From IMG/VR virus record IMGVR_UViG_3300032257_000003: a DNA stretch of 64,000 nt. One strand, 5' to 3'. The DNA comes from an uncultured virus (IMG/VR IMGVR_UViG_3300032257_000003) (lineage: Duplodnaviria; Heunggongvirae; Uroviricota; Caudoviricetes). The notes beneath the pieces were generated by a model. The model saw only the letters and a list, made by a program, of their open reading frames with translations, ran no database searches and had not been told where the DNA came from. Position numbers and translations under genes: made by a program. Within the stretch, counting starts at the first letter, position 1; the number at the start of each line of letters is the position of its first letter. Shown here in pieces: positions 1,013-61,846 of this stretch.

Positions 1013-1339
1013 GTGATGACCCCATTAACCAAGCGTGAATTAGATTTAATACGAGTAACATCATGTGTAGCGGTATTAGCTAATGATATCGGTGACTTCA
1101 AAAAGGCGACGAGTATCGTAGCTAAAGATAATCCTGATTACTGGTCTGAATTGTGGGAGGTTTATTTTATAGCTGTTAAAGGCGAAAATGATGCTGAGTT
1201 TGTAAGGTGCCATAATTCGTTATCAGCAAAGCATGAGTGGTTAGATCGTGTAGGTAAAAATAAAGACAAGCCCGAGCAGTGCGTATTATGCAATAAGCTA
1301 AAGATTGACTTGTATAATAAAAACAAAATGCCATTCTGA
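1013..1339 (+). CDS. Hypothetical protein
   Basis: ORF; stop overlaps TerL start. Confidence 0.55.
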   Translation: MMTPLTKRELDLIRVTSCVAVLANDIGDFKKATSIVAKDNPDYWSELWEVYFIAVKGENDAEFVRCHNSLSAKHEWLDRVGKNKDKPEQCVLCNKLKIDLYNKNKMPF

Positions 1340-2058
1340 TGCTGGATAAAAAAGCACTGCAAATTGAATTGATTGCGCTCATGGAAGAGCAGATATATCG
1401 TGAATCACGTACAGCATGGAAGAAATGGTTTCCTGATGAGGGCCCTTACAGGCGTGAGCTATACAAAAAACATCTAAAATTCTTCAAAGATACAGGGCTT
1501 AGTGATGATGATATTACAGAGTGCGCGTTTATCGCGGCTAATCGTGTTGGCAAATCTATTGCAGGCGCGTATTGCGTCAAAGTATGGACAACAGGAGTGT
1601 ATCCTGATTGGTGGGATGGAAGGGTATTTGATCACCCCACCAATGGTTGGTGTGCTGGAGATACCGGAGAAACCGTGCGAGATATCATTCAGCTCGAACT
1701 ACTTGGCCCGGCTGGAAAACATGGCACTGGTATGCTTCCAGCAGATTCAATACTTAGAACGACTCCGCGTACAGGCATACCGGATGCTGTTAAAGATATC
1801 TATATTGAACATGAACCATCAAAAGAAACCAGTTATGCAGGTTTAAAGTCATACGATCAGAAGCGTAAGAGCTTCCAGGGTACGGCAAAGCACTGGATAT
1901 GGAACGATGAAGAACCGGGTATGGATATATACTCAGAAGAAATACTTCGTGTAATGACTACGCACGGGGTTATTATTAATACATTCACGCCATTATCAGG
2001 ATTATCTGATGTGGTATTGAGCTTCTTACCCGGTGGTAAGGCTCCAAGCGCAGGGTGA
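1339..2058 (+). CDS. terL: Terminase large subunit, N-terminal ATPase half (P22 gp2-like)
   Basis: Walker A AANRVGKS, Walker B WIWNDEEP, coupling motif TFTP. Confidence 0.9.
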   Translation: MLDKKALQIELIALMEEQIYRESRTAWKKWFPDEGPYRRELYKKHLKFFKDTGLSDDDITECAFIAANRVGKSIAGAYCVKVWTTGVYPDWWDGRVFDHPTNGWCAGDTGETVRDIIQLELLGPAGKHGTGMLPADSILRTTPRTGIPDAVKDIYIEHEPSKETSYAGLKSYDQKRKSFQGTAKHWIWNDEEPGMDIYSEEILRVMTTHGVIINTFTPLSGLSDVVLSFLPGGKAPSAG

Positions 2059-2061
2059 TTT

Positions 2062-2211
2062 ATGAGCAAAAACGATAAAATGATTGATATCTCCATTGAT
2101 ATAGACGCACCAACAGTATTGGATGGTTTGTTGTTGGTTGTTCTTGGTTTGTGCGTATGTGGCATTATTGTCACTTTCTGGGAATTACTACTAAGAGATT
2201 TAATATTATGA
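2062..2211 (+). CDS. Small single-TM membrane protein inserted in terL
   Basis: Translated by hand: MSKNDKMIDISIDIDAPTVLDGLLLVVLGLCVCGIIVTFWELLLRDLIL; ATGA overlap with next ORF. Confidence 0.55.
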   Translation: MSKNDKMIDISIDIDAPTVLDGLLLVVLGLCVCGIIVTFWELLLRDLIL

Positions 2212-2624
2212 AAGTATACTCACGTGAATGGGTAAGAGTTTTACTGTACTCGATGCTGATTGTTCCAACTGTTTATCTATACGCTGCATTCTATGTGGCA
2301 ATGATCTTTTTAAACAATTATCGTGAGGCCGTTGCAACTGATAGCCGATTTAAACGATGGTGGAAAGCATCATTGTACCCTGTTGGTGCAGTATTCCTGT
2401 TTCTGGATGGCCTTTATGATCTTATATGTGGTTCTATCTGGTTCAGGAAGTGGGCTGAATGGGGAGTTCGTAACAAAACATTCACTGCCAGGCTGAAGTA
2501 TTACAAAAAACAGCATGAAGAGATGGTAAGTAATCTTCGATATGATGCAGATATTGTTGCACGCTATGAACTGGCTATTAAGTTCTGTACATTAATTAAT
2601 AAAGTCGCCCCGGCCCACTGTTAA
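2208..2624 (+). CDS. Membrane protein inserted in terL
   Basis: ATG 2208 in frame with track ORF 2151-2624; two hydrophobic segments; TAATG overlap with TerL-C. Confidence 0.65.
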   Translation: MKVYSREWVRVLLYSMLIVPTVYLYAAFYVAMIFLNNYREAVATDSRFKRWWKASLYPVGAVFLFLDGLYDLICGSIWFRKWAEWGVRNKTFTARLKYYKKQHEEMVSNLRYDADIVARYELAIKFCTLINKVAPAHC

Positions 2625-3361
2625 TGTCTAAACTCGTAACCATGGCTGGTTGGGATGATGTGCCTCACCTTTCGCAGAAGGCAAAGGACACGTTATATGA
2701 GTCAATCCCACCATATCAGCGTGATGCACGCTCAAAAGGAATACCGCAATTAGGTTCAGGTGCTATTTACCCAGTTCCGGAATCTGAGATAGTTGTACCA
2801 GATATGCCAATACCAGCACATTGGCCAAGAGGTTATGGCCTAGATGTAGGTTGGAATAAGACTGCTGCAATGTTTGGAGCCCTGGACAGAGACAGTGATA
2901 TCTTGTATTTGTATTCAGAGCATTACATGGGTGAAGCACAACCAGCCGTACATGCTGCCGCAATTCGTGCGCGTGGTCCATGGATACCCGGAAGAATTGA
3001 CCCAGCAGCACGCGGTAGAGGTCAAAGAGATGGCGAACAGTTACTTCAAGACTATAATGATTTAGGTTTGGATTTGCTCCCAGCCGTTAATGCAGTAGAA
3101 TCAGGGTTGTATAAGGTCTGGTTACGATTATCTACCGGCAGATTAAAAGTATTTGCATCATGCCAGAGCTGGTTAGGTGAGTTTCGTATTTACAGGCGTG
3201 ACGATAAAGGCAAGATAGTTAAGAAAGATGACCATGCAATGGATGCCACACGATACTTGGTTCAAGAGTGTGAGCAAAATGATTTTATGATTACTAAACC
3301 GATTCTCCAGAACATGGGTGGCACTTCCATTCAGGTTATGGATGATGATGTAGGTTATTAG
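2624..3361 (+). CDS. terL: Terminase large subunit, C-terminal half (lid + RNase H-fold nuclease)
   Basis: WDDVPHL...DARSKGIPQLGSG, GLDVGW and DDHAMDATRY acidic motifs. Confidence 0.9.
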   Translation: MSKLVTMAGWDDVPHLSQKAKDTLYESIPPYQRDARSKGIPQLGSGAIYPVPESEIVVPDMPIPAHWPRGYGLDVGWNKTAAMFGALDRDSDILYLYSEHYMGEAQPAVHAAAIRARGPWIPGRIDPAARGRGQRDGEQLLQDYNDLGLDLLPAVNAVESGLYKVWLRLSTGRLKVFASCQSWLGEFRIYRRDDKGKIVKKDDHAMDATRYLVQECEQNDFMITKPILQNMGGTSIQVMDDDVGY

Positions 3362-45280: not shown

Positions 45281-45739
45281 TCATTTGTAATATTCCTTAA
45301 AGTATTTAGGCAATAGTCTCATTGCCTGCTTTTCACGGTCCCAGCATTCAGTTTTATTAGTAGGGTGTTTGTCTTCACCCCATAAACGTCCTTCAAGGGC
45401 CTGTTTTAATACAGATAATTCAAGCCAAAAATTAAACCCCAGCGCATATTCATGTTCTTCAGCTCGCTTCTGGGCCTGCTTTTCGCGCCAGTGTTGCTTA
45501 TCTACTTCAGTTACAGCTGGAAATAAATCCTTTAATTTAAGACCTACCTCGCTAAGAATCTCGTCTGTATAACAGCCAGCAAAGCAATGAATGCCCACAG
45601 CTCCATCGGCTCTTTCTGTCAGTGCTAAATGCTTATTGTCCTCTAATGTATGGTGAGGGCAGGGGCAAGCAGCTGAATACTGGTTTTTGCCAGTTTTCTT
45701 AACAAAATCAAAGCAGCCAGCTATTGATTCGAGGCTCAT
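45281..45739 (-). CDS. Primase-type Zn-binding-domain protein without TOPRIM domain
   Basis: ACPCPHH...IHCFAGC....IL..VGL...DLF. Confidence 0.7.
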   Translation of the reverse strand: MSLESIAGCFDFVKKTGKNQYSAACPCPHHTLEDNKHLALTERADGAVGIHCFAGCYTDEILSEVGLKLKDLFPAVTEVDKQHWREKQAQKRAEEHEYALGFNFWLELSVLKQALEGRLWGEDKHPTNKTECWDREKQAMRLLPKYFKEYYK

Positions 45740-50473: not shown

Positions 50474-50552
50474 CTAATTTCAGCAGGTTTATTTAAACCG
50501 CCCCAGCAATCAATGGGTTGATGCCGCTGGGTTCTAATTTGAGGAAAGATGA

Positions 50553-50717
50553 ATGTTAGTGATAACAAGAAAGCCCGGACAATCCTTTAATATTGGTAAA
50601 GATATCACGGTAACAGTGATAGACCTTCGTCCAGGGCAGGTAAGTATAGGTATTGATGCACCGAAAGATGTATCGATTAAGCGCGATAACATGAAGCAAA
50701 CAAAAGGCAGTAAATAA
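50553..50717 (+). CDS. csrA: CsrA/RsmA-family RNA-binding regulator (54 aa, absent from ORF track)
   Basis: Translated by hand: [46 protein letters not shown]; Arg44 retained; GAGGA RBS. Confidence 0.9.
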
Positions 50718-50719
50718 TA

Positions 50720-51172
50720 ATGGCACGCGGAATAAATAAAGTAATTTTAGTGGGTACTTGTGGAAAGGACCCGGAAACACGTTACATGCCATCAGGTGGT
50801 GCGGTTACATCTGTTAGTCTTGCAACTAATGAAAGTTGGAAAGATAAGAAAACTGGCGAAAAGCAGGAGCGTACAGAGTGGCATAACATCACTTTCTTTA
50901 ATCGTTTGGGTGAAATTGCGGGGGAATACCTTACAAAAGGCGCTCAGGTGTATATTGAAGGAAGTTTGCGTACTGAGAAATGGCAGGATAAACAGGGTAA
51001 TGATCGTTACACCACCAAGATCATTGCTAATGAAATGCAAATGCTTGGTGGGCGTGCCGCTGGTGGTCCATCTCACCCAGCAGGACAACAGCAGAGCCAG
51101 CCACAGCCAGCCAATGAGCCATCACCAACAGCGCCAATAGATGATAGTTTTGATGATGATATTCCTTTCTGA
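50720..51172 (+). CDS. ssb: Single-stranded DNA-binding protein
   Basis: [17 protein letters not shown]-terminal DDDIPF. Confidence 0.97.
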
Positions 51173-51213
51173 CCGGGAACATAGAGTTTTGTAAAGAAAA
51201 TAAGGAGTGTATA

Positions 51214-51498
51214 ATGGGCAATAAGTTTGATGATATGCGTGAAGCTAGATCAACCATGAATGCTGCTGATGATACTAGAGCTTGGGTTATGCCAGCGATA
51301 GGTGAGGGTTACGCTGTAGAGGATGACCCAGCCGGTAGACTTCGTTTCTTCATAGGCGAAGAGCTTGAAATTGTATGGCGCAAGGGCATCTGGGTAGCAC
51401 ATAGCTGTGACGAGGTAGAAGATCGTGTGTACAGTAGCTTAAAAGATGCTATCCCTTTTGAATCATGGTTGCTTGAAAATGATAACGTGTGTCTTTGA
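51214..51498 (+). CDS. Hypothetical protein
   Basis: AAGGAG RBS. Confidence 0.55.
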   Translation: MGNKFDDMREARSTMNAADDTRAWVMPAIGEGYAVEDDPAGRLRFFIGEELEIVWRKGIWVAHSCDEVEDRVYSSLKDAIPFESWLLENDNVCL

Positions 51499-51788
51499 CA
51501 CTGCCGCCACATAGGGTATTATTACGCATGGCTGATATTTTACCAAAAGGAACCCAGATCAAGTGCCCGCGTAAACGGCACCTTATTGGGGTTTTAAATA
51601 AAGACCATCGTCCAGGCGATATTTTAGCAATCAATATTATTGATTTTGAAGAGAGCCAGCATCGTATAATTGGCGAACAAGCCAAGTGTAAGGTGTGTGA
51701 TAGTCAATATTTAGTAGACGGTAATTTATATACCAGCGCAGGCTGGAAACCATTTAACCCAAAATTAGAGCCAGTGGCTCACCGATAA
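51489..51788 (+). CDS. Hypothetical Zn-ribbon-like protein
   Basis: CPRKRH...CKVC. Confidence 0.5.
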   Translation: MSLTLPPHRVLLRMADILPKGTQIKCPRKRHLIGVLNKDHRPGDILAINIIDFEESQHRIIGEQAKCKVCDSQYLVDGNLYTSAGWKPFNPKLEPVAHR

Positions 51789-51800
51789 AGGTAGATTATT

Positions 51801-52010
51801 ATGTCATTTTCAATTAAACAGCATTTCAAGTTTTTCGCAGTACAAGAACAAACCGAATTAAACCGTGGGTTTAAAGCTCTCCAGGCTGATTTAGATGCAC
51901 ATCGAGCAGCTCTTGTTGCTCTTACAGCAAAACTAGATGCAGATGTTGGTATAACCGATACCGATTATGCCGCAACGGTTGACCCTGTACCCAATACTGT
52001 AATTGACTAA
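51801..52010 (+). CDS. Small protein resembling head-associated proteins
   Basis: LTAKLDADVGITDTDYA motif. Confidence 0.5.
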   Translation: MSFSIKQHFKFFAVQEQTELNRGFKALQADLDAHRAALVALTAKLDADVGITDTDYAATVDPVPNTVID

Positions 52011-52516
52011 TGGACGAGTCTACAGAAGATAACGTTTATCATTCCAGCGATGAAGACCTGCATTCAATGATGCAGCGTCTTTTCGATGAAGGGAATGAAT
52101 CTATTGAGGTCCAGCACCCAGACGGTGTAAGGATTATCACCCGCAAGCAATTCGCAGACATGAAAGCCCAGCTGGAAAAGAACAAAAAAGCCAGCCCTGC
52201 CAAACGATTTAAAATGCGAAAACAAATTGATCGCTTAATTACTCAAAAGCAAATCAGACATAGAACAGCTATGATTACAGCAGAGGTACACGTCATCGAT
52301 GTTGAGAATGGCAAGTTTGGGTGTGATATCGATGGTAATGATCTTGGTGTTGATGGAATGGTATTTACACCAACAGATAGTTATCTTGATGGCGTTGAGT
52401 TAGTTGAGCATGAAGTAGGTTGTTTTATTGATGAGGATGGCAATAAAGCACCGATAAGAGTCAAGCACGCCAATGTGCAACTACCAGTGGGCGGTGTAGA
52501 TAACACCCACAAGTAA
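52010..52516 (+). CDS. Hypothetical protein
   Basis: TAATG coupling. Confidence 0.55.
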   Translation: MDESTEDNVYHSSDEDLHSMMQRLFDEGNESIEVQHPDGVRIITRKQFADMKAQLEKNKKASPAKRFKMRKQIDRLITQKQIRHRTAMITAEVHVIDVENGKFGCDIDGNDLGVDGMVFTPTDSYLDGVELVEHEVGCFIDEDGNKAPIRVKHANVQLPVGGVDNTHK

Positions 52517-52653
52517 GCCGGTGGCCTTTATTGGTTCTCCTTGCCAGCGTGTCATAGCGCTGTAATCGGTGATTACTCGAATAGGTGCCAGCGTAAATGG
52601 CGCATCCTAATTTTAAACTATGCCCCCTTTCTAAAGGCGGCAAGGAAAAGATA

Positions 52654-53097
52654 ATGATAATACTAAAAAGCGATTATTCGCCAGAATCAGCACAATCTCT
52701 CCAAGAAATCGACAATATCAAAATGTTGAAAGCACTGTTATTACTGGCAGGCTTACCACAAGATGAGCTCGATAAATTCAATGATCTATCTACCCAAGCC
52801 GCTATTGATTACGAAAAAGCATTAGGCGAGATGGTAGATGGCAAGCATACCGACGAGCAATGGGCTGCAGCTAAAGAAGCTGCACGTGTTCCAATGGGCC
52901 ATGCAGATCAAATCCTATGTGATAACTTAATTAGCATTGAAAACACCATGATTAAATCAAATCAAGATGGTTTCTACTCCCACATTCAAACCACGGTATA
53001 CAAAAGCGGTGAGGAAGTGGCCCGCATTGAGCGCCCGGTTATTGATATCGAAGCAGAAAGCTACGAAGACAATAGCATGGGGCTTAGTCGTGATTAG
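52654..53097 (+). CDS. Hypothetical protein
   Basis: AAGGA RBS before ATG 52654, in frame with track ORF. Confidence 0.55.
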   Translation: MIILKSDYSPESAQSLQEIDNIKMLKALLLLAGLPQDELDKFNDLSTQAAIDYEKALGEMVDGKHTDEQWAAAKEAARVPMGHADQILCDNLISIENTMIKSNQDGFYSHIQTTVYKSGEEVARIERPVIDIEAESYEDNSMGLSRD

Positions 53098-53524
53098 TAT
53101 CATAGTGACTGACCCAAAAACTTTGGAAGAGCCCTGCCAGCCTATTGATGACATGGAGCTCGCAGGGAAAATAATCACTGACTTGATTGATACAGCTAGA
53201 TACTGGCAAACATGCCCAATAGGTTGCCTTGGTCTATCAGCTAATCAGATCGGTTACCCGTATAACGTGTTTGTCATGTGGCATTGTGGCAACTGGCAGG
53301 CAATGATTAACCCTGAAGTGGTATGGGAAAGCCCTGAGATCATGAAAAAGGGTGAAGGCTGTTTATCTTTTCCAAAGATCAAGCGCAAAATGACCCGGTT
53401 TAAGAAGATCACGGTAAGATTTTCTGCACTACGCAAGAAGGACCCGCTTGAAATTCGATACACGGGAATGACAGCACGTATCATTCAGCATGAAATGGAC
53501 CATTTAGCGGGTAAGCACATATGA
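53090..53524 (+). CDS. def: Peptide deformylase
   Basis: GLSANQIG, EGCLS, QHEMDHL; probable GTG start at 53090. Confidence 0.92.
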   Translation: MISIIVTDPKTLEEPCQPIDDMELAGKIITDLIDTARYWQTCPIGCLGLSANQIGYPYNVFVMWHCGNWQAMINPEVVWESPEIMKKGEGCLSFPKIKRKMTRFKKITVRFSALRKKDPLEIRYTGMTARIIQHEMDHLAGKHI

Positions 53525-53733
53525 GTTGGGATGATGATAAAAAGCATAATGAGATAATCGCAGCTTTAGAAAGCATCGAGGCGAATCAGCCATCATTAAG
53601 AGATCGGTTCGCAATGGCTGCAATGAATGGATTATTGTCTGCTAATAAATCATTTTCATTTTCAACAGTCACAAGCCAAGCATATAAAATAGCCGATGAT
53701 ATGCTGAAATCACGGGAGAAAACTAATGAATAA
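53521..53733 (+). CDS. Conserved small phage protein
   Basis: SLRDRFAMAAMNGLL..AYKIADDMLK.R motif. Confidence 0.7.
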   Translation: MSWDDDKKHNEIIAALESIEANQPSLRDRFAMAAMNGLLSANKSFSFSTVTSQAYKIADDMLKSREKTNE

Positions 53734-54043
53734 CACACGCATACCAGTTTATTCAGAACAGGAACACGAGATAGATATCGAAGAAGAAACGATAGAGGAT
53801 GCTGATATCTCCCCGCATACTAAGGTGGTTGAGATAGAGCCTTTACGAAACAGCGATATGTTTTTGCGTGGCGACGATGACTAAAATAGCGCATATCAAA
53901 CCTAAAGTAAGGTCCAGAGTATGCCCGTATTGTGGCTGGGAGGTATCGCAGGTTGGTATCGTGCATACCCCAGGAGACCCAGATTGCCCGAGGTGCGCTA
54001 AATACAAATACAGTCAGTTCGTGCCAATGAAGGAAGTGAAGTC

Positions 54044-54568
54044 ATGACCGATGCAATTAATAAAGCTTTAGAGGATTGGTTAAAAATAGCGGAAGAGTAT
54101 ATAAAACGGCCTAATTGGCAGGTAGTGTGTGATATCAAAAACCAGCCATTTTTCGGCAGGGAAAAGAACCCTGTTATGGTTAAGTTTCGCAGTCCGGTGC
54201 CGTTTGTTGCGAACATACCCAAAAAAGAAGGCGAGAAGATTGCCGTTATTAAACCACATAAGATACTCTGGTGTGATGTTCCAAGCCATATACAAGAAGA
54301 ATATGAGAGCTGTATGTGTTCGAGGGATAGTGAAGAATATAAAAAGCAGATGTTAGGTGAGTTCGCACCAGACCAGCGAGCGATTGATCTACATGATCGT
54401 TTACAAAAGTATTATGACGATACACCAGACTGTATGAACAATGCGAAAGCCAGGCCAATATGGAAAGAGTTTGTTCGCTGGTGCGGTGAGCATGAATATA
54501 CTCAAGAAGATATAAATACAGCCAAGCGACTCAATAAGTTTGAAATGAACCGGACTACAAACAAATGA
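54044..54568 (+). CDS. Hypothetical protein
   Basis: ORF with AAGGA RBS. Confidence 0.5.
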   Translation: MTDAINKALEDWLKIAEEYIKRPNWQVVCDIKNQPFFGREKNPVMVKFRSPVPFVANIPKKEGEKIAVIKPHKILWCDVPSHIQEEYESCMCSRDSEEYKKQMLGEFAPDQRAIDLHDRLQKYYDDTPDCMNNAKARPIWKEFVRWCGEHEYTQEDINTAKRLNKFEMNRTTNK

Positions 54569-54611
54569 TTAGTTACTTAATTCACGCAATAAAGCTAAAA
54601 GAGAAGTAGCA

Positions 54612-55622
54612 ATGACGCCAGATCAAGACGAGCTATACCAAGACGCAGTTGATGCTGTTCGAGGGTATGACAAAGCAACGATATCATTTCTACAGCGTGA
54701 GCTTAAAGTGGGGTATAATCGTGCAGCCCGTTTAATGACTACACTGGAAGAAAATAAAGTAGTAACACCATTCGCCCTGGATGGAACTAGACAGGTAATT
54801 TATGATGATGTGCCAGCGCCAAACGAATGGGTAGAGATAGACCCAAAAACATCAACTAAAGATATGGTTGCAATGGGTAAGGGTGAGAAGCCAATCAAGC
54901 CTAAAAAGAAGCCGCAAAAAAAACCAGCCAAAAAGCCCACACAGCAAGCTATCAAAAAGCAGAAAGCATCACCCAAAAAAAAAGCAGCTGTTAAACAATC
55001 CCCCAAGAAGAAACAAACAACCAAAGTTACCGAAGAATCAAAAAAAGAACTAGCCAAAAAAAACAGAGCTAAGGCAAAACTAAAGAAATTGGGACCCATC
55101 CCAAAGTACCATATTAATCACGGTGAATGGGATAAGCTTGAAGTCATGGAAGCGATCTGCAATGACCTAATCAAAACCAGCTATGGATTGAATTACATAT
55201 GCCGGCACAATGATGAGTATCCCAGCCAAGCAAGCGTGTTTGGTTGGTTCAATCGGGAGGACCAGAGCGGTGGCGACAAACCCCTTTTAGATATGTACGC
55301 ACGCGCGAAGCGATTACAGGCTGATTATGTTGTCGATGAGATGCACGAGATTGCAGATGATGGCACCAATGATTATATGGAAAAAATAGGCAAGGACGGT
55401 GAGACATATGAAGTTGTTAACCAGGAAGCAATTAACCGGTCCAGATTACGCATAGACACCCGCAAATGGACCTCATCTAAACTAAACAATCGTAAGTATG
55501 GCGATAAGCTTGAATTGGCTGGAAGTGAAGAAAGACCACTTTCTAAGCTATCAGATGAAGAACTGAGTGCCAAAATAGCCGCTTTACTTGAATCTATTAA
55601 AGGAATCCAAGGTAATGAGTGA
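54612..55622 (+). CDS. terS: Terminase small subunit fused to an N-terminal FtsK gamma-like winged helix via a Lys-rich linker
   Basis: DELYQDAV..ATISFLQRELKVGYNRAARLM..LE; C-terminal YARAK..QAD...EIADD...RLRIDTRKW..SKL..RKYGDK. Confidence 0.85.
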   Translation: MTPDQDELYQDAVDAVRGYDKATISFLQRELKVGYNRAARLMTTLEENKVVTPFALDGTRQVIYDDVPAPNEWVEIDPKTSTKDMVAMGKGEKPIKPKKKPQKKPAKKPTQQAIKKQKASPKKKAAVKQSPKKKQTTKVTEESKKELAKKNRAKAKLKKLGPIPKYHINHGEWDKLEVMEAICNDLIKTSYGLNYICRHNDEYPSQASVFGWFNREDQSGGDKPLLDMYARAKRLQADYVVDEMHEIADDGTNDYMEKIGKDGETYEVVNQEAINRSRLRIDTRKWTSSKLNNRKYGDKLELAGSEERPLSKLSDEELSAKIAALLESIKGIQGNE

Positions 55623-55657
55623 AGTAATTAAAAAAAATGAGTGAAGTAATTAAAAAA
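55614..55657 (+). repeat. Tandem duplication of AATGAGTGAAGTAATTAAAAAA
   Basis: Two adjacent copies at the terS stop. Confidence 0.8.
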
Positions 55658-55685
55658 TTAGTCAATAAACCAGCAGGAGAGATAA

Positions 55686-55883
55686 ATGAGCGAAACATAC
55701 GAAGACCAGATGAAAGACTCTGATATGGTGTTTAATCAGATAACATCAGCAAATTACGATAATCATAAAGATGCCGAGCGTGCCATTGTTATGCTTTATG
55801 TTCCTGATATGTCAATTAGCCGTGCTGGTATTAGCCATGCACTAAAGCGCATTGAAAATCATTTTGGGAATAAAGCGGTATGA
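55686..55883 (+). CDS. Hypothetical protein
   Basis: AGGAG RBS. Confidence 0.55.
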   Translation: MSETYEDQMKDSDMVFNQITSANYDNHKDAERAIVMLYVPDMSISRAGISHALKRIENHFGNKAV

Positions 55884-56077
55884 GTGAAAAAGCCCAACTA
55901 CTGGCCATGCAATTAATGCTGAAAGGCGCTATGAGTGACATTACCCAGAAAGAGCAGGACCGTATTAATAACCAGATCGAGCGAATTAACGATATTCTCA
56001 ATGAAGACAAAGAGATTGCACCCTTAGTTATGGGGCTGGTTAGTTGTGACCTTGGCCTGGAGCTGGAGAATGACTAA
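55880..56077 (+). CDS. Hypothetical protein
   Basis: ATGA coupling. Confidence 0.55.
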   Translation: MSEKAQLLAMQLMLKGAMSDITQKEQDRINNQIERINDILNEDKEIAPLVMGLVSCDLGLELEND

Positions 56078-56352
56078 TGAATAACATGACAGATGAAGAA
56101 GCGAAGGAATTTAAAGCCAGTGTTGTAGCTGAGGTCAATTCTCAAAATCAAGCTGCTTACAATAAAACTGTAAAAGCGTACGACAAACACAGCGCAGACA
56201 TAGAAAGAATCTTATCAAAAATCGTGCCTGATATTATTGAAAGGATGGCAACTAAGCCTAATTACTGGTTCCCTATATTACTCAATGTGATAAACGGGGT
56301 GATACTTGGAGTTGCTATGTATATTGCAATTATTTTTGGTATTGAGGGGTGA
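56077..56352 (+). CDS. Hypothetical membrane-anchored protein
   Basis: C-terminal TM segment. Confidence 0.55.
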   Translation: MNNMTDEEAKEFKASVVAEVNSQNQAAYNKTVKAYDKHSADIERILSKIVPDIIERMATKPNYWFPILLNVINGVILGVAMYIAIIFGIEG

Positions 56353-56355
56353 GGT

Positions 56356-56634
56356 ATGTTAAATAAAAAAGCAATAAGGAAACTTGTTTTAGAAGGCCGC
56401 AGTGACGAGGTAAGAGATTTGCTTTTGTGTGATTCACAAATAGTTATTATTCAGAACATAAAGCAATCTGGAATAATTACAGCAGCTCAATTAGCTGATG
56501 ATTTATGTATTAGTGTACAAAGCGCCTCATCGAGGCTTACTAAATTATCAAAGTCTGGGTATTTAACACGCAAATCAAGAACCGCTGAGAGTGGTGGTAT
56601 TGAGTTTATTTACTGGTACGGGGCGGAGATATGA
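56356..56634 (+). CDS. Winged-helix (MarR-like) DNA-binding protein
   Basis: ITAAQLADDLCISVQSASSRLTKLSKSGYLTR. Confidence 0.75.
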   Translation: MLNKKAIRKLVLEGRSDEVRDLLLCDSQIVIIQNIKQSGIITAAQLADDLCISVQSASSRLTKLSKSGYLTRKSRTAESGGIEFIYWYGAEI

Positions 56635-56852
56635 AAAGACATAGCGCATGGGGCCATGACGGTTCATTTAGGTTTAAGTGGCAAGCCAAGTTATGGGTTA
56701 TTAAACAAGCTATTCGTGATTACTTTATGTTACCAGTTAAAACCTGCAAAACCTGCGGCTACAGAAACAAGCTTAACTCTCACTGTACATTAAACCAGTT
56801 AAGTAAAAAGGTTGATGATGGTTTTAGCTGTAGTGAATATAAGGAGAGATAG
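56631..56852 (+). CDS. Cys-rich hypothetical protein
   Basis: CKTC..C..C pattern; coupled. Confidence 0.5.
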   Translation: MKRHSAWGHDGSFRFKWQAKLWVIKQAIRDYFMLPVKTCKTCGYRNKLNSHCTLNQLSKKVDDGFSCSEYKER

Positions 56853-57119
56853 ATGGCTTGCAAATGTATAAATATGTGCGGTTATGGTGACGATAGCTGG
56901 GGCAAGCATCACCATGTTAAATGCGAAAAGTATGAAACAGAAAAGCACTCATACTTGTTCTACTACGAGGATGCTTTAAGTGCATGGATACCGGCTCCTG
57001 ACAAAATAGAAAATATATGTTCAGCCGTGGACAATCTTGAACCCGATGAAGAAATAGAGATAAAGTTTCGTCGTGTGGATATGACTGATAAGCAACTAAA
57101 TGATCTTTCTGATGAGTAA
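56853..57119 (+). CDS. Hypothetical protein
   Basis: AAGGAG RBS. Confidence 0.55.
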   Translation: MACKCINMCGYGDDSWGKHHHVKCEKYETEKHSYLFYYEDALSAWIPAPDKIENICSAVDNLEPDEEIEIKFRRVDMTDKQLNDLSDE

Positions 57120-57152
57120 ATCGAAAAGTAAAGAGTTCGTCAAGGGGTACAT

Positions 57153-57490
57153 ATCCGCTGTGCTGGAGGGCAGATGCTTGAAATCCATAAAGACAGATTA
57201 CGGATTCGGGTCAAGAGGGCTTGGGTTGTATGTGTGGCGGAGAGACAAAATTCTTTGCTTTATACCAGATGAAGATGAAGATATAAAGGGCGGAACAATG
57301 ACCGATATTTCAGAATATGGTGATACGTAATGGCGTAAGGAACGGTAAAACATGCCTAGCCTGTTGGTGGGCCTGCTGATCTGATAAATACTTAGATGTT
57401 CATCCTAGACCATCTAGTGAATTTGCTTCTTTTTACTCAAATGAAGAACGTAAGTTAAAGACCTCAACATATAACAACGGAGAGTGAAGT
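57153..57490 (+). repeat. Direct repeat copy 2, carrying a frameshift and a TGG>TGA change relative to copy 1
   Basis: Direct comparison with 1-337. Confidence 0.95.
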
Positions 57491-57576
57491 TAATAGTATT
57501 ACTATTCGACATAAAAAAATCACTATATCGAAAACCACATTTAAAATTGACATTAAATTATTAACTGGGCTAACAA

Positions 57577-60309
57577 ATGGCAACAATACAACAATTAAAA
57601 GACCAAATAGACTTACACGAATTAGCAGCAAGATTAGGCATTCAACAGGGAAAAGGTAAAAATGCAAATTACTTTAGCCCACACCATGCAGATAAATCAC
57701 CCAGCCTTTCAATAGATAATAAGCGTAACAGATGGAAGGACTTTAGTGACCCTGATTCAGGTGGCTCATGTATTGACCTGGTTATGTATGTAGAAAACGT
57801 TGAAGCCGCTGAGGCGGTGAATATTTTGCATGATCTTTATGGCATTGAAAAAGACAAACCAAACCCTAAAAAGCAGCAACAAAAATCAACAGTTGAATAT
57901 ATTGCAGACAAGTGCAAAGGCAACGAAGAAAAAATAATTGAATATTTAACGAGCCGTGGCATTACTCAGAAAGTCATTAAACACGGCATTAAAAAAGGCA
58001 TGTTAGGTTTTAATACGTATACGGGTAAAACCGCTGCAGCCGGTGAGTTTGGTTATGGGGGCCCTGCAGTTGCTTTTATTGTTAAGTGTTTAAACTTATC
58101 GCGTATTGTTGCTGTAGATATGCGCTATCTGGAACCAGAATTAAATGGTGGTGTTAAAACACAGATTCAGGGAGAGAAAAACGGCTATTTATGGACAAAT
58201 GATATTCAGAAACTTAAAAACGCTAAGGTTGTTTTTATTGTAGAAAGTTCGATTAATGCATTATCAGTTGATAGCTGTGAAATACCAGGTACGGCCGCTT
58301 TTGCATTAAGAGGCACAGGTAACACTGATAATTTAGATTTACGTTTTTTAATGGGTAAGAAGGTGGTTATTTGCCTGGATAATGACCCTGCCACAGACAA
58401 AGGAAAATATCCTGGTCAAGAGGCATCTTGGGTTTTACATTCGCGCCTTACAGCCATGAATGTGGCTTGTCATTTAACCGATCAAACAACCTGGGATGAA
58501 TTTGAATATAACGATGTAAACGACATTCTAAAGGATGTAGGTGTGTCAGGTTTAAAAACGCATTTATCTAAACTGCAGGGTGGTTGTATACCTGGTGTTT
58601 ATGTTTCAGAAGAATACCAGGGCCCTAGCCGCATATGGTTGCCGCCTCATGACTTTGCACAGTATTGGCGTTTTAGAGTTAAAGAAGATTTCACCACCTG
58701 CATTACAAAAATGACTGAAGATGATGATGGTAATAAAAAGCCTGAGTTTGCTGATTTATGCGGGTTTAGGGTGGCAGGGCTTTCACGTATAACAGTATCT
58801 AGCTCTGTTGCTACGATGACAGGTGAAGAGGACACATCACCCAGAACACAGTTTGCAGTGAGTGTGCAGACACCACGCCACGGCAATAAATTAATTAGAC
58901 GTGTGCTTGAAGATGAGCGTTTACACAATGTTGATCAGTGGCGAAAATTTGGCCCTGTTTATGCGCAAAATGGATTTTTACGTATGATTAATATTTTAGA
59001 ACGTGCTGCGCATATTGGCTCACGTGAAGCAATTAATTTTGTTGGTTTAGCCTGGAAGCAGGGCAAGCCTACGGTTAACGAGGGGCCAGATTGTTATTTC
59101 ACTGACCCTAATAAGCAATGCCCATATCATAATTTATCATTCCCTTCAGGTTCAAAAAGTGACGCCAGAAAAGTGATTGAAGCTTACCAGGCTACATTTC
59201 AAAAAAATGCTGCTTTGCATACTTTAAATTGGAGTTTGGGTGGTCATTTAAAAGCATTTTTAGGCTTCTGGCCGCACTTAATTATGCAGGCTGATAAAGG
59301 TAGTGGTAAGTCTGTTTTAACTCAACGACTAGCAAGAACGGTTGCAATAACGATGTTTTCTGGCCAGTCATTACAAACTGAATACAGGTTACTCACATCT
59401 ATTAGTGGTACCAGCCACCCAGTTGGCTGGGAAGAAATGTCAGCACGTTCTCAACAAATAATTGATAAAGCGGTTTCTCTTCTGCAGGAATCTTATGGTT
59501 ATACGGTAACTTTCAGGGGCACTGATATGACAGAGTATTTAATTTCTGCCCCCGTGTTGCTTGCTGGTGAAGATGTGCCCGTAAAAGGCGTTACAGGCAA
59601 AGTGGTGCGGGTTAATTTAAGCCAGCGTAAAGGTGATTTATTACCTGAAGACCTGCCCCGTTTCCCGGTTCTGGAATGGATTAAATTTTTATCTGAGCAA
59701 TCCAGGACCAGTGTTTTAGAGTTGCATAAACGGGCTGTTGATCATTGTGACTTTCATTGCAGAACAGATGGTAAAGATGAGGGTGCCAGCCGTATGATCA
59801 ATAACTACGCGGCCATGTTAACCAATTGGCGTCTGTTATGTGCATTTGCTGATATACCAAAAGAAACAGGTAATTTTGAGGCAGATTTATTAGCTGAAAT
59901 GAATGTGCATATAGCTGAGACCAGTGGTGATAGACAGCCATGGGTTTGGATTATAGAAACGCTCTTTAGTCAAATATCCTCCCATATGTTTAATTACCCT
60001 TATAAGTTCGTAGTGATGCGCAATGAGGGCGAGCCAGTTGAATGTTTGCTGATTCGTTGCACTCATATCATGCAGCATTTCAAACACAGCCCTAGCCTTA
60101 AAGAGACCTACAATGGTTTGCCTGTTAAGTCTGACCGAGTGTTAAAGCGGCAACTTAACCAGGCTGAAGTAATTTATAAAGACCGTGTAGATACCACCAT
60201 TGCCAAGAAAAGAGAAAGCCACATGATGGCCCTCTCTATTGATGCGCTTGAAGGTTACGGCCTGCACGTGAGCCGCCCTGAAACACCTGATGATTTTGCA
60301 GAGAAATAA
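57577..60309 (+). CDS. TOPRIM primase fused to a P-loop helicase-like domain
   Basis: N-terminal SPHHADKSPSLS..GGSCIDLV; IVESSINALS and CLDND TOPRIM motifs; ADKGSGKS P-loop. Confidence 0.85.
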   Translation: MATIQQLKDQIDLHELAARLGIQQGKGKNANYFSPHHADKSPSLSIDNKRNRWKDFSDPDSGGSCIDLVMYVENVEAAEAVNILHDLYGIEKDKPNPKKQQQKSTVEYIADKCKGNEEKIIEYLTSRGITQKVIKHGIKKGMLGFNTYTGKTAAAGEFGYGGPAVAFIVKCLNLSRIVAVDMRYLEPELNGGVKTQIQGEKNGYLWTNDIQKLKNAKVVFIVESSINALSVDSCEIPGTAAFALRGTGNTDNLDLRFLMGKKVVICLDNDPATDKGKYPGQEASWVLHSRLTAMNVACHLTDQTTWDEFEYNDVNDILKDVGVSGLKTHLSKLQGGCIPGVYVSEEYQGPSRIWLPPHDFAQYWRFRVKEDFTTCITKMTEDDDGNKKPEFADLCGFRVAGLSRITVSSSVATMTGEEDTSPRTQFAVSVQTPRHGNKLIRRVLEDERLHNVDQWRKFGPVYAQNGFLRMINILERAAHIGSREAINFVGLAWKQGKPTVNEGPDCYFTDPNKQCPYHNLSFPSGSKSDARKVIEAYQATFQKNAALHTLNWSLGGHLKAFLGFWPHLIMQADKGSGKSVLTQRLARTVAITMFSGQSLQTEYRLLTSISGTSHPVGWEEMSARSQQIIDKAVSLLQESYGYTVTFRGTDMTEYLISAPVLLAGEDVPVKGVTGKVVRVNLSQRKGDLLPEDLPRFPVLEWIKFLSEQSRTSVLELHKRAVDHCDFHCRTDGKDEGASRMINNYAAMLTNWRLLCAFADIPKETGNFEADLLAEMNVHIAETSGDRQPWVWIIETLFSQISSHMFNYPYKFVVMRNEGEPVECLLIRCTHIMQHFKHSPSLKETYNGLPVKSDRVLKRQLNQAEVIYKDRVDTTIAKKRESHMMALSIDALEGYGLHVSRPETPDDFAEK

Positions 60310-60850: not shown

Positions 60851-61846
60851 ATGGAATTAATTGAACAGTTTTTGCAGTGGTTAGAATTTAATAAGGGAAG
60901 GTCCGTTAATACGTGTATTAAGTATCGCCTTTATTTGGTTCGTTTAAATGATTATTTACCTAGTGAATTAATTAGTGCTGAGAGAGGTGAATTAGAATCT
61001 TTCGTAGGTATCGATGCACACAAAAGCGGTATGTCACCTAAAAGCCGTAAACCGATGGTTGCCGCTATACGAGGTTTTTATACCTGGTTATATCGTGAAG
61101 AAAAAATATCTAATAACCCATCTGAAGCTATAAATTATCCCTCTGTTGGTAATAAGTTGCCAACTGCTGCAAGCCTTCAAACCGCTGAAAAGTTATTGAT
61201 GGGACCAGACTTAAATACTTTAAAGGGTGTGCGTGATGCAGCTATTTTAGCTTTATTAATAGGGGGTGGGTTAAGAGTTTCAGGTTTACGTAAACTAAAT
61301 GAAAGCCATTTACTTTGGACAGAGGACGATGATGGAACAGAAAGATTAACACTTAAGTTAACAGAGAAGGGTGATAAAGATAGGTTGTTACCAATGACAA
61401 CAGAAGCCAGGTTGTTTATTAGAGCTTACCTCGGTCACCCGAACTTAAAACATATTGATAGAACATTAAGTAATAGCGATAAGGTGTTATTCATTTCATT
61501 AAGAAATAGGTCAATACCAGAATATGATTATCGTGGAGAGCTTAGGCGTTTATCTGCACGTTCTATTAATGACATGATTCATTTGTATGGCGAACAGCAG
61601 GGCCTACCTACTAATCAGTTACATTCACATGCAATGCGCCACCTCTTTGGTACTGAAATGGCAGAGTCAGATATTGACTTACTACAGCGCCAAACATTAC
61701 TAGGTCATGCAGACCCTAAAACTACAGAGATATATACAAAGTTAGCTACAAGAAAGCTGGCCAGAGTAGTTGATGTTGCAAGCCCCTTGAGAAAAATAAA
61801 AACACCTATGACAGACATAGCTAAAATTATTGAGAATAATAAATAA
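60851..61846 (+). CDS. Tyrosine recombinase (XerC/D-like)
   Basis: GLRVSG, EKGDK, HAMRH, LLGH, TEIY catalytic set. Confidence 0.92.
   Translation: MELIEQFLQWLEFNKGRSVNTCIKYRLYLVRLNDYLPSELISAERGELESFVGIDAHKSGMSPKSRKPMVAAIRGFYTWLYREEKISNNPSEAINYPSVGNKLPTAASLQTAEKLLMGPDLNTLKGVRDAAILALLIGGGLRVSGLRKLNESHLLWTEDDDGTERLTLKLTEKGDKDRLLPMTTEARLFIRAYLGHPNLKHIDRTLSNSDKVLFISLRNRSIPEYDYRGELRRLSARSINDMIHLYGEQQGLPTNQLHSHAMRHLFGTEMAESDIDLLQRQTLLGHADPKTTEIYTKLATRKLARVVDVASPLRKIKTPMTDIAKIIENNK

What the first reader, a model, noticed from the sequence alone, without database searches (positions are those of the whole stretch)
54612..55622. FtsK gamma domain fused to the small terminase subunit
Seen: the first ~65 aa match the FtsK gamma winged helix (SFLQRELKVGYNRAARLM), then a ~90-aa Lys/Pro-rich linker, then a TerS-like domain, all in one frame. 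Known: FtsK gamma reads KOPS (GGGNAGGG in E. coli) to orient the translocase and activates XerD. Inference: packaging initiation or direction may be guided by KOPS-like motifs, could bias transduction of host DNA, or could recruit XerCD or block host FtsK. I noticed one GGGCAGGG at 45657-45664 but did not count genome-wide.
Basis: partly seen in the sequence, partly recalled or inferred. Interest (0 to 1): 0.8.

Follow-up and report, generated by a model that had tools for sequence, protein, structure and literature searches.

The report
Small terminase carrying an FtsK-gamma domain
A phage from a microbial mat encodes a DNA-packaging small terminase with an extra N-terminal FtsK-type DNA-reading domain on a long, very basic tether, a rare layout already described once in a different terminase family.

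Summary
ORF 54612-55622 (+, 336 aa) is one open frame with three parts. Residues 4-64 are an FtsK_gamma winged helix (Pfam E 9.8e-20). Residues 88-170 are a disordered Lys/Pro-rich tether (net charge +27). Residues 177-301 are an Sf6-type small terminase (PF20901, E 4.3e-25). An AlphaFold model matches both solved folds.

Eight other metagenomic proteins carry the same fusion (33-76% identity), in two clades of the PF20901 family, so it is not an assembly artefact.

It is not a new idea. Kazantseva et al. 2021 described FtsK_gamma fused to a Terminase_2-type TerS in Bacillus phages Sam46/Sam112 and proposed KOPS-like guidance and transduction. This is an independent fusion to a different TerS family.

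The functional inferences remain untested. GGGNAGGG occurs once in 64 kb (about 2.9 expected on that strand), and no skewed over-represented octamer was found. The residues for KOPS reading and XerD activation overlap and are mostly kept (R1289, R1297, R1300 and E1306 kept; E1303 is Thr).

One oddity: the gene lies in the early region, about 51 kb from the (split) TerL gene. In 40 of 71 relatives a TerL ORF starts within 300 bp.

Verdict: real, a new variant of a known kind, moderately interesting.

The parts
54612..55622 (+). Whole gene: FtsK-gamma / basic tether / Sf6-type small terminase, 336 aa (P0001)
   Evidence: ORF list and translation. Pfam finds two domains. PHROG 1482 terminase small subunit, E 1.2e-24.
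54621..54803 (+). FtsK_gamma winged helix, residues 4-64
   Evidence: PF09397 E 9.8e-20. PDB sequence hits to P. aeruginosa FtsK gamma 2j5o/2ve8 (E about 3e-12) and E. coli 2j5p. The model has pLDDT 92-97 here and matches KOPS-bound 2ve9 at TM(target) 0.90-0.94, rmsd 0.6-1.0.
54873..55121 (+). Lys/Pro-rich tether, residues 88-170 (PKKK, KKP and SPKKK repeats); its DNA holds three A8-A9 runs
   Evidence: 30 K, 9 P, net charge +27, pI 10.7. pLDDT is below 50 for residues 89-130, followed by a predicted helix at 141-158. It is the least conserved part: 65/100 identical to P0002, against 51/61 for gamma and 119/136 for TerS. A-runs start at 54916 (8), 54975 (9) and 55056 (8).
55140..55514 (+). Sf6-type small terminase core, residues 177-301 (HTH region, helical hairpin, two strands)
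   Evidence: PF20901 E 4.3e-25, profile positions 4-104 of 106. PDB sequence hit to Sf6 gene 1 protein 4dzp, E 7e-11. The model has pLDDT 94-98 and matches Sf6 TerS 3hef/4dzj at TM(target) 0.71-0.72, rmsd 2.4-2.7 over 123 columns.
55554..55616 (+). C-terminal helix, residues 315-335
   Evidence: Predicted helix at 315-335. It is conserved in the close relatives P0002, P0003, P0006, P0004 and P0009 (alignment).
1339..3361 (+). Large terminase (the presumed partner), split into an ATPase ORF (1339-2058) and a nuclease ORF (2624-3361) by about 590 bp that hold a 157-aa ORF
   Evidence: Terminase_6N and Terminase_6C. tblastn of EBPR podovirus 1 TerL places its residues 12-231 at 1366-2037 (frame 1) and residues 243-465 at 2630-3304 (frame 2).
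45657..45664 (+). The only GGGNAGGG (GGGCAGGG) in the window
   Evidence: Pattern count and sequence. It lies inside the minus-strand ORF 45281-45739. There is no enrichment.
60851..61846 (+). Xer-like tyrosine recombinase, 5.2 kb downstream (context for the XerD rival)
   Evidence: Phage_int_SAM_1 plus Phage_integrase. Full-length match to the XerD model TIGR02225, E 4.2e-49, 167 bits, below the 329.6 cut-off. In the alignment to XerD 1a0p/5dcf, E184 is kept and E183 is Thr.

Best explanation
The gene encodes the phage's small terminase (TerS), an Sf6 gp1-type subunit that is expected to form a ring. Each subunit carries an extra N-terminal DNA-binding module. That module is an FtsK-gamma winged helix held on a flexible tether of about 100 residues, with net charge +27 and SPKK-like repeats. 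I infer that the basic tether gives non-specific DNA affinity. I infer that the several gamma heads of one ring read a short asymmetric motif on phage concatemers at or near pac. Together they would raise the avidity and set the orientation of terminase loading. The usual TerS core would still oligomerise and hand the DNA to TerL. What is shown: the three-part architecture, both folds, conservation of the fusion, and purifying selection on gamma. What is inferred: that this is the packaging TerS, that gamma binds DNA rather than a recombinase, and that its target is a phage motif other than canonical KOPS.
For: Both domains are above the Pfam thresholds, and the model matches the solved Sf6 TerS and the KOPS-bound FtsK gamma. 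It is the only TerS-like protein that Pfam or PHROGs found in the window. I scanned 49 ORFs of 100 aa or more with PHROGs, 26 with Pfam and 14 small ORFs at relaxed E. The same fusion occurs in 8 other proteins at 33-76% identity: P0002, P0003, P0006, P0010 and P0017, and P0134, P0141 and P0148. Gamma is as conserved as the TerS core (84% against 88% identity to P0002, with the linker at 65%). In the clade around P0001, the 7 members without gamma still carry K/R-rich N-terminal tails of 35-85 residues, which fits an N-terminal DNA-binding appendage as the clade's theme. Recognition-helix positions equivalent to N1296, R1297, R1300 and E1303 vary among the nine fused gamma domains (alignment). 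That is what diversifying phage-specific sites would produce, rather than one host KOPS. Canonical KOPS is not enriched in the phage DNA. There is a published precedent of gamma fused to TerS in headful phages, directly upstream of TerL (PMC8190038). A TerS gene far from TerL has a precedent in phage E217, about 58 kb apart (review PMC9611059).
Against: The gene is not next to TerL. TerL lies at 1339-3361, about 51 kb upstream in the window, and no TerL follows within the 8.4 kb up to the window's end. In relatives, the first ORF of 300 aa or more downstream of the TerS homologue carries TerL Pfam domains in 42 of 71 loci, and 40 of those start within 300 bp. A 108-aa ORF (1013-1339) abuts the TerL start. 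It has no family match, so a second, unrecognised TerS cannot be excluded. About 35 kb of the 98,949-bp contig was not visible to me. I found no candidate motif: no over-represented skewed 7- or 8-mer and no convincing repeat cluster near the gene. The gamma surface that binds DNA is also the XerD-activating surface, and its key residues are kept. Basic residues equivalent to Sf6 K33, R48 and K59 are absent here, but they are also poorly conserved across the family (10, 19 and 14 of 63 rows), so there is no sign that the tail replaces a lost core function.
Confidence: 0.6

Rival explanations
1. The gamma domain works as a protein-protein module. It would activate or sequester a Xer recombinase (host XerD or the phage's own Xer-like enzyme at 60851-61846). 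One possible purpose is to resolve phage multimers or concatemers before packaging. Another is to compete with host FtsK at dif.
For: The 9-residue peptide of E. coli FtsK that suffices to stimulate XerCD-dif recombination (1289-1297, RQFRIGYNR; passages of PMC5052618) reads RELKVGYNR here. The critical R1289 is kept and 5 of 9 residues are identical (alignment). A Xer-like recombinase is encoded 5.2 kb downstream, and its residue aligned to XerD E184, the salt-bridge partner of R1289, is Glu. Phage-borne Xer activators exist (XafT of TLC-phi; search listing and abstract starts only).
Against: R1289 and the GYNR stretch are also part of the DNA-binding surface, so keeping them says nothing specific. 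XerD E183 is Thr in the phage enzyme. No dif-like site was found in the window: 0 matches at up to 3 mismatches, 0.83 expected. One fused relative (P0006) has Gln at the R1289 position and a 5-residue insertion in this stretch. I could not test whether fused relatives also carry a Xer-like gene, because none of their contigs could be fetched.
Confidence: 0.12
2. The protein is a TerS-derived DNA-binding protein with a role outside packaging, such as early-gene regulation, replication-origin handling or partition. The true TerS would be an unrecognised small ORF next to TerL or in the unseen part of the contig.
For: The gene sits among early genes: Erf, exonuclease, SSB and deformylase upstream; a MarR-like gene, primase and an iteron-like region downstream. 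The family norm is a TerL ORF starting within 300 bp (40 of 71 loci). The 108-aa ORF 1013-1339 overlaps the TerL start codon by one base, which is the classical TerS position.
Against: The full TerS core is kept at high conservation, including the hairpin and the C-terminal helix. No other TerS family was detected. ORF 1013-1339 resembles neither the annotated small subunit of StenR_269 (BLASTP E 0.82) nor that of EBPR podovirus 1 (no tblastn hit). Ralstonia phage Cimandef places its TerS of this family 3.8 kb and 12 small ORFs upstream of TerL. E217 TerS lies about 58 kb from TerL.
Confidence: 0.15
3. Gamma reads host KOPS, so that terminase loads on the bacterial chromosome. The result would be oriented, frequent generalised transduction or degradation of host DNA.
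For: R1300 and E1306 of the KOPS-blind triple mutant (R1300A/E1303A/E1306A; passages of PMC2680272) are kept. The fold superposes on KOPS-bound gamma. Canonical KOPS is rare in the phage itself, as expected if the target were host DNA. The same suggestion was made for Sam46.
Against: E1303 is Thr here, and the single E1303A change already weakens KOPS recognition. The host and its KOPS are unknown. The best cellular FtsK gamma matches are only 53-56% identical, so the domain does not track a known host FtsK. Recognition-helix residues differ between fused relatives.
Confidence: 0.08
4. It is an artefact: two adjacent genes joined by an assembly or homopolymer error in the A-rich linker.
For: Three of the five A runs of 8 or more on the + strand of the window lie in the linker-coding 250 bp.
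Against: Eight other sequences from other assemblies keep the fusion in frame. A contig of run X1 spans the whole ORF with 0 differences and 0 gaps, and no indel was listed in the ORF.
Confidence: 0.02

Closest known systems
gp1 of Bacillus phages vB_BcM_Sam46 / Sam112 (Kazantseva et al. 2021, Sci Rep, PMC8190038)
   Same: It has an N-terminal FtsK_gamma domain and a C-terminal small terminase in one polypeptide. The authors proposed KOPS/SRS-like loading sites and a role in transduction (passages). The gamma domains are 36% identical over 59 residues.
   Different: The TerS part there is Terminase_2 (PF03592), whereas here it is Sf6_terminase (PF20901). BLASTP finds no similarity outside gamma, so the two are independent fusions. 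Sam46 gp1 is 254 aa with a short linker and overlaps the TerL gene. Here the protein is 336 aa with an 83-residue poly-Lys/Pro tether, and the gene is about 51 kb from TerL. In 50,697 phage records the Sam46 type covers 80% or more of the query in 2 records, and the present type in 0.
Phage Sf6 gene 1 protein (TerS; PDB 3HEF, 4DYQ, 4DZJ, 4DZP)
   Same: It has the same Pfam family and fold: an HTH region, a helical hairpin core and strands. It is expected to form a ring (octamer in Sf6, review PMC9611059).
   Different: Sf6 gp1 is 140 aa with no N-terminal extension. Phage TerS protomers are usually 15-21 kDa, and this one is about twice that. The Sf6 DNA-binding residues K33, R48 and K59 correspond to Y195, G211 and M228 here (my reading of the alignment).
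FtsK gamma subdomain (E. coli 2J5P, P. aeruginosa 2J5O/2VE8/2VE9, XerD-gamma fusion 5DCF)
   Same: It shares the winged-helix fold and 48% identity to the P. aeruginosa domain. R1289, G-Y-N-R1297, R1300 and E1306 are kept.
   Different: It is not attached to an FtsK/SpoIIIE motor (no PF01580). E1303 is Thr. The genome shows no KOPS skew.
Other phage proteins with a gamma domain (stand-alone 'FtsK gamma domain protein' of Vibrio phages; gamma within proteins annotated RdgC in Pseudomonas and Vibrio phages)
   Same: The gamma domain acts as a mobile module in phage proteins that handle DNA. 269 of 50,697 phage records match residues 1-70.
   Different: None of the 60 listed rows lies under a gene annotated as terminase. 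Their functions are unknown.
XafT, the Xer activation factor of the satellite phage TLC-phi
   Same: It is a phage-encoded factor that replaces FtsK gamma in activating XerD. It is relevant only to the rival explanation.
   Different: I saw only the search listing and abstract starts. I recall it being an unrelated domain, but I did not compare sequences.

Membership tests
Sf6-type small terminase (Pfam PF20901) | Sequence match above the family's gathering score | tested here: met
   88.3 bits against a cut-off of 27, covering profile positions 4-104 of 106. PHROG 1482, E 1.2e-24.
Sf6-type small terminase (Pfam PF20901) | TerS fold: HTH region, helical-hairpin oligomerisation core, stalk strands | tested here: met
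   The AlphaFold model has pLDDT 94-98 over residues 165-300. Foldseek matches 3hef/4dzj at TM(target) 0.71-0.72 with probability 1.00.
Sf6-type small terminase (Pfam PF20901) | Gene immediately upstream of the large terminase gene | tested here: not met
   TerL lies at 1339-3361, and the next ORF of 300 aa or more downstream is a primase. The norm is that 40 of 71 relatives' loci have a TerL ORF starting within 300 bp. This feature is not universal (E217; Cimandef 3.8 kb).
Sf6-type small terminase (Pfam PF20901) | Ring oligomer that binds pac DNA and stimulates TerL | not testable with these tools
   This needs biochemistry or cryo-EM.
FtsK gamma domain (Pfam PF09397) | Sequence match above the gathering score, and a winged-helix fold | tested here: met
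   70.5 bits against a cut-off of 30.6. The model matches 2ve9 at TM(target) 0.90-0.94, rmsd 0.6-1.0.
FtsK gamma domain (Pfam PF09397) | KOPS-recognition residues R1300, E1303, E1306 | tested here: inconclusive
   R40 and E46 are kept, and E1303 is T43 (alignment to 2j5p/5dcf; residues from passages of PMC2680272).
FtsK gamma domain (Pfam PF09397) | XerD-activating peptide 1289-1297 with R1289 | tested here: inconclusive
   RELKVGYNR against RQFRIGYNR: R1289 is kept and 5 of 9 residues are identical. The same residues touch DNA, so this is not diagnostic.
FtsK gamma domain (Pfam PF09397) | C-terminal appendage of an FtsK/SpoIIIE translocase motor | tested here: not met
   There is no PF01580 or other ATPase domain in the protein. 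It is a gamma domain but not an FtsK.
FtsK gamma domain (Pfam PF09397) | Cognate skewed 8-mer (KOPS) over-represented in the DNA it acts on | tested here: not met
   GGGNAGGG occurs 1 time on + and 0 on - in 64 kb, against 2.9 and 0.8 expected. No 7- or 8-mer has z above about 2. This covers the window only, and the host genome is unknown.
Gamma-TerS fusions of the Sam46/Sam112 kind | FtsK_gamma at the N-terminus and TerS at the C-terminus of one ORF | tested here: met
   compare Sam46 gp1.
Gamma-TerS fusions of the Sam46/Sam112 kind | Homology of the TerS part (Terminase_2) | tested here: not met
   BLASTP aligns only the gamma domains. The Pfam family here is PF20901.

The most novel reading that the evidence does not exclude
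The ring of gamma heads gives terminase an FtsK-like 'reading head'. Oriented binding to a short polar motif would set where and in which direction packaging starts, by the same logic that loads FtsK on one side of KOPS. Because the KOPS/XerD surface is largely intact, the same heads may also load terminase on host KOPS. That would produce dif-directed, high-frequency transduction of host DNA.
Probability: 0.12. Interest if true: 0.8.

Novelty: new variant of a known kind. Interest (0 to 1): 0.45.

Why it matters
How pac-type small terminases recognise DNA is still unsettled. The review PMC9611059 (passages) calls TerS-pac binding weak, mostly sequence-independent in vitro, and a key unanswered question. 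A TerS that carries a domain whose DNA-recognition code is understood at atomic level (FtsK gamma bound to KOPS) offers a tractable handle. The motif bound by the isolated head could be found by SELEX or DAP-seq on phage DNA, and the prediction tested by mapping termini. The fusion arose in at least two unrelated TerS families: Terminase_2 in Bacillus phages and PF20901 here. Within PF20901 it occurs in two clades. This suggests a recurrent solution rather than an accident.

Tried and rejected
1. I sent the gamma domain (residues 1-70, 6-row alignment) with the C-terminal domain of the phage Xer-like recombinase to complex prediction. The result was no verdict (score 0.00, controls not run). 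This is neither for nor against binding.

2. I looked for RNA runs. No RNA holder was listed. All three holders are stored as contigs only, so termini, strand and expression could not be read. X2 and X3 cover only parts of the stretch.

3. I counted canonical and variant KOPS/SRS motifs and ran a de novo skew scan. There was no enrichment.

4. I searched for repeat clusters as pac candidates. The only cluster near the gene (ATGAGTGA at 55615, 55637, 55880, 55931) is explained by a 22-bp tandem duplication and by start-codon contexts (MSE...). I rejected it as a pac candidate.

5. I searched for a dif-like site and found 0 matches.

6. I ran a gamma HMM built from the 9 fused proteins against 11,646 six-frame ORFs of 134 fetched loci. 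There were 0 hits, so no genomic context of any other fused form could be studied.

7. The word-based homologue searches restricted to residues 1-70 had only 13 and 76 candidates. That is too few to survey gamma architectures or to name a host.

8. I tested whether basic tails compensate for lost basic residues in the TerS core. There was no difference: core net charge was -4.4 against -4.2.

9. I tested ORF 1013-1339 as an alternative TerS. There was no family match, no similarity to StenR_269's small subunit, and the Atlas leads were all under its thresholds. This remains unresolved.

10. Rfam at gathering threshold and a tRNA scan of the window found nothing. The TerL interruption is therefore unexplained.

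11. No whole genome is held for the window, and there are no earlier notes on it.

12. PMC11961720 mentions FtsK gamma only in its reference list and is irrelevant. Löwe 2008 was not held under the id I tried. Statements about three gamma domains per KOPS are recalled.
Full report
THE OBSERVATION

The window has one ATG-started ORF at 54612..55622 on the + strand, 336 aa (translation). Pfam finds two domains above their curated cut-offs:
- FtsK_gamma (PF09397) at residues 4-64, E 9.8e-20, 70.5 bits against a cut-off of 30.6.
- Sf6_terminase (PF20901) at residues 177-301, E 4.3e-25, 88.3 bits against 27.

PHROGs agrees: phrog_1482 'terminase small subunit', E 1.2e-24, plus several gamma-bearing phage families. 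The PDB sequence search hits Sf6 gene 1 protein (4dzp, E 7e-11) and FtsK gamma of P. aeruginosa and E. coli.

Between the two domains lies a stretch (residues 88-170) with 30 Lys, 9 Pro, no Asp and net charge +27. It contains PKKK, KKP and two SPKKK repeats. That SPKK-type repeats bind the DNA minor groove is my recollection and comes from no call.

I built an AlphaFold model from a 63-row alignment (mean pLDDT 83.4). It shows:
- a confident gamma domain (pLDDT 92-97);
- a disordered segment at 89-130 (pLDDT below 50);
- a helix at 141-158;
- a confident TerS domain (pLDDT 94-98);
- a C-terminal helix at 315-335.

Foldseek against the PDB returns only two kinds of strong match. One is Sf6 TerS (3hef, 4dzj, 4dzp; TM by target 0.65-0.72). 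The other is FtsK gamma, including the KOPS-bound form 2ve9 (TM by target 0.90-0.94, rmsd 0.6-1.0).

IS THE FUSION REAL AND MAINTAINED?

The word-indexed homologue search listed 120 proteins. Five besides the query carry both Pfam domains: P0002 (76% identity, 99% coverage), P0003, P0006, P0010 and P0017 (33-39%).

The exhaustive HMMER search of 1.84 billion representatives gave 9840 hits at E up to 0.001 and listed 150. I scanned 35 of those 150 with Pfam, choosing those with a sizeable N-terminal extension or two matched stretches. Four carry both domains: P0003, P0134, P0141 and P0148. That makes nine fused sequences including the query.

Against P0002, gamma is 51/61 identical, the TerS core 119/136 and the linker 65/100. 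Gamma is therefore under constraint like the core, while the tether drifts.

A contig of run X1 covers 53500-56104 with no difference or gap. Low-depth pieces of run X2 match parts of the ORF exactly. X1 may be the source sample, and all runs are stored as contigs only.

The architecture is nevertheless rare. None of 134 fetched loci of TerS relatives encodes a gamma domain. No record among 50,697 phage genomes covers 80% or more of the protein.

WHERE THE FUSIONS SIT IN THE FAMILY

I built a FastTree of 259 TerS cores over 141 columns. This is few columns for so many rows, and support is local SH-like only. The nine fused rows need 4 changes of state, and at least 3 are forced by starred branches. 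Shuffled labels need 8.9 on average, and 0 of 500 shuffles were as low.

The fused rows fall in two groups:
- Clade A holds P0001, P0002, P0003 and P0006 with seven unfused proteins. All seven have K/R-rich N-terminal tails of 35-85 residues. The enclosing 13-row set has support 99.
- Clade B has 8 rows, five of them fused, but its support is only 54. Within it, P0010, P0017 and P0148 group at 99.

The tree cannot tell gain from loss. It does show that a basic N-terminal appendage is the theme of clade A, and that gamma is an add-on at its tip.

THE PRECEDENT

Two literature searches ('FtsK gamma' with 'terminase'; 'FtsK_gamma' with 'phage') found Kazantseva et al. 2021 (PMC8190038). I read passages of it.

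[quoted passage not shown] The phages are headful packagers, and their pac site was mapped about 4.5 kb upstream of terS. The authors propose KOPS/SRS-like loading sites, oriented translocation, and mis-packaging of host DNA.

I fetched Sam46 gp1 (254 aa; it overlaps the TerL gene). BLASTP aligns only the gamma domains (36% over 59 residues), with nothing in the TerS parts. The Sam46 type is found whole in just 2 of 50,697 phage records. The present protein is therefore an independent fusion of the same head to a different TerS family.

Gamma domains are common in phages: 269 records match residues 1-70. They occur as stand-alone proteins or inside proteins annotated RdgC or FtsK-like. The Cluster J mycobacteriophage paper notes phage FtsK-like proteins with divergent gamma domains (passages of PMC3706429).

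WHAT THE GAMMA DOMAIN COULD READ

The alignment to the E. coli domain in 2j5p and 5dcf fixes the numbering as follows:

| E. coli FtsK | This protein |
|---|---|
| R1289 | R29 |
| R1297 | R37 |
| R1300 | R40 |
| E1303 | T43 |
| E1306 | E46 |

The KOPS-blind FtsK mutant is R1300A/E1303A/E1306A, and E1303A alone is partly defective (passages of PMC2680272). Two of the three residues are kept here.

The peptide 1289-1297, RQFRIGYNR, suffices to stimulate XerCD-dif recombination. R1289 forms the critical salt bridge with XerD E184. The same surface contacts KOPS DNA, so gamma cannot do both at once (passages of PMC5052618). Here the peptide reads RELKVGYNR. Sequence therefore cannot separate a DNA-reading role from a Xer-activating one.

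Among the nine fused gamma domains, the positions equivalent to N1296, R1297, R1300 and E1303 vary (alignment printed). I read this as diversification of specificity. That is an inference.

TESTS ON THE DNA

- GGGNAGGG occurs once on the + strand (45657, inside a minus-strand ORF) and never on the - strand. Base composition predicts about 2.9 and 0.8.
- The B. subtilis SRS GAGAAGGG occurs once. GAGAAG occurs 19 times on + and 4 on -, against 24 and 8 expected.
- No 7- or 8-mer combines strand skew with over-representation. All z scores against a maximal-order Markov expectation are about 2 or less. The skews seen are what a mostly + strand coding window gives.
- Repeat scans near the gene gave no convincing pac candidate.
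- No dif-like site was found at up to 3 mismatches.

These tests cover 64 kb only. The host is unknown, and no whole genome is held for the window.

THE GENOMIC SETTING

The window is a phage with no close relative among deposited phages (no megablast match for 50000-62000). Its protein lies on a 98,949-bp contig. Its layout is as follows:
- TerL (1339-3361, interrupted), portal, major capsid, tail genes, a 5609-aa polyvalent protein and lysis genes run on the + strand to about 40 kb.
- Recombination and helicase genes run on the - strand from 40 to 46 kb.
- Early genes then run on the + strand: Erf, exonuclease, SSB, peptide deformylase, the fused TerS, seven small ORFs, a P2/P4-type primase (55% identical to Burkholderia and Ralstonia phage primases), a Xer-like tyrosine recombinase and a large serine recombinase.

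The fused gene is thus about 51 kb downstream of TerL, and no TerL follows it within the remaining 8.4 kb.

I measured the family norm on 133 fetched loci. Of these, 76 had at least 3 kb downstream of the TerS match, and 71 had an ORF of 300 aa or more starting within 6 kb. For the first such ORF:
- 42 of 71 carry TerL Pfam domains, and 40 of those start within 300 bp;
- 21 have no Pfam hit;
- 8 belong to other families.

The position here is therefore atypical. It is not without precedent. Ralstonia phage Cimandef has its TerS of this family 3.8 kb and 12 small ORFs upstream of TerL. The review PMC9611059 states that E217 TerS lies about 58 kb from TerL (passage).

I found no other TerS in the window by Pfam or PHROGs. 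However, the 108-aa ORF that abuts the TerL start has no family and stays an open alternative.

THE XER LEAD

The tyrosine recombinase at 60851-61846 matches the XerD and XerC models over their full length, but far below their cut-offs (E 4e-49, 167 bits against 329.6). In the alignment to XerD, the residue at E184 is Glu and the one at E183 is Thr. This is suggestive at most. I could not test co-occurrence in relatives, and the complex prediction gave no verdict (see the Tried and rejected section).

MOST LIKELY MECHANISM

I commit, at about 0.6, to the following. This is the phage's TerS. Its ring displays several gamma heads on long polycationic tethers. The tethers catch DNA non-specifically. 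The heads read a short asymmetric phage motif near pac that is not canonical KOPS, giving avidity and polarity to terminase loading. The core then works as in Sf6.

- Shown: the architecture, both folds, conservation of the fusion, and the lack of KOPS enrichment.
- Inferred: ring formation, the packaging role, DNA rather than protein as gamma's ligand, and the nature of the motif.

One test went against a refinement of this idea. I asked whether the tail compensates for lost DNA-binding residues in the core. The Sf6 residues K33, R48 and K59 (DNA-binding mutants, passage of PMC9611059) are Y, G and M here. But they are poorly conserved in the whole family, and core charge does not differ between proteins with and without long N-terminal extensions.

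NOVELTY AND SCORE

The kind of protein, gamma fused to TerS, is published. This is a new variant in four respects: a different TerS family, a very basic tether of about 83 residues, at least nine members in two clades known only from metagenomes, and a gene placed far from TerL.

It would matter as a tractable entry to the unsettled question of how pac-type TerS proteins recognise DNA. Nothing here shows that it works by KOPS-like guidance. Interest 0.45.

Noticed in passing
window 1339-3361: The large terminase is interrupted. Its ATPase half (1339-2058, frame 1) and nuclease half (2624-3361, frame 2) align to residues 12-231 and 243-465 of a 480-aa TerL. About 590 bp lie between them and hold a 157-aa ORF (2151-2624) with no family. 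No Rfam intron model matched. This could be an intron, a mobile insert or a truly split TerL.
   Followed up: partly
window 17370-34199: A 5609-aa ORF with InPase, GGDEF-like, Eco57I-like methylase, ResIII helicase and LPD38 domains. This looks like a 'polyvalent protein' of the kind carried by some phages and conjugative elements (that name is recalled).
   Followed up: partly
window 60500-60860: Downstream of the primase gene is an origin-like stretch. GCTTGTTT repeats three times about 21 bp apart, there is an AT-rich tract, and CGCGGGTT occurs three times. The 179-aa ORF called here (60321-60860) is probably not a gene.
   Followed up: no
window 55614-55657: An exact 22-bp tandem duplication (2 x AATGAGTGAAGTAATTAAAAAA) spans the stop codon of the fused gene.
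   Followed up: no
window 56075-57500: In three microbial-mat runs the small genes downstream of terS form a mosaic hot spot. Short conserved segments (about 56076-56114, 56338-56358, 56738-56819, 57466-57500) have 2-7 times higher summed depth. They are joined in other contigs to different sequence, with skips and replaced cassettes. This suggests cassette exchange among related phages.
   Followed up: no
window 54916-55063: Three of the five A runs of 8 or more on the + strand of the window lie in the linker-coding part of the gene (A8, A9, A8). Slippage here would yield a truncated product of gamma plus part of the tether. No indel was seen in the contigs laid.
   Followed up: partly
window 60851-61846 and 62560-63999: A Xer-like tyrosine recombinase and a large serine recombinase (open at the window's end) lie side by side in one phage.
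   Followed up: partly
window 52967-53524: A phage-encoded peptide deformylase (phrog_2890, E 5e-31). Its called start overlaps the preceding ORF 52597-53097.
   Followed up: no
phage records (e.g. MK511043.1, MW824431.1): In Pseudomonas and Vibrio phages the gamma domain lies under genes annotated as RdgC / recombination-associated protein. Gamma may be a recurrent add-on to several kinds of phage DNA-handling proteins.
   Followed up: no
P0179 and P0200: Other composite TerS forms exist in this family. P0179 has a Terminase_2 N-terminal fragment ahead of a full Sf6_terminase domain. P0200 has two Sf6_terminase stretches.
   Followed up: no
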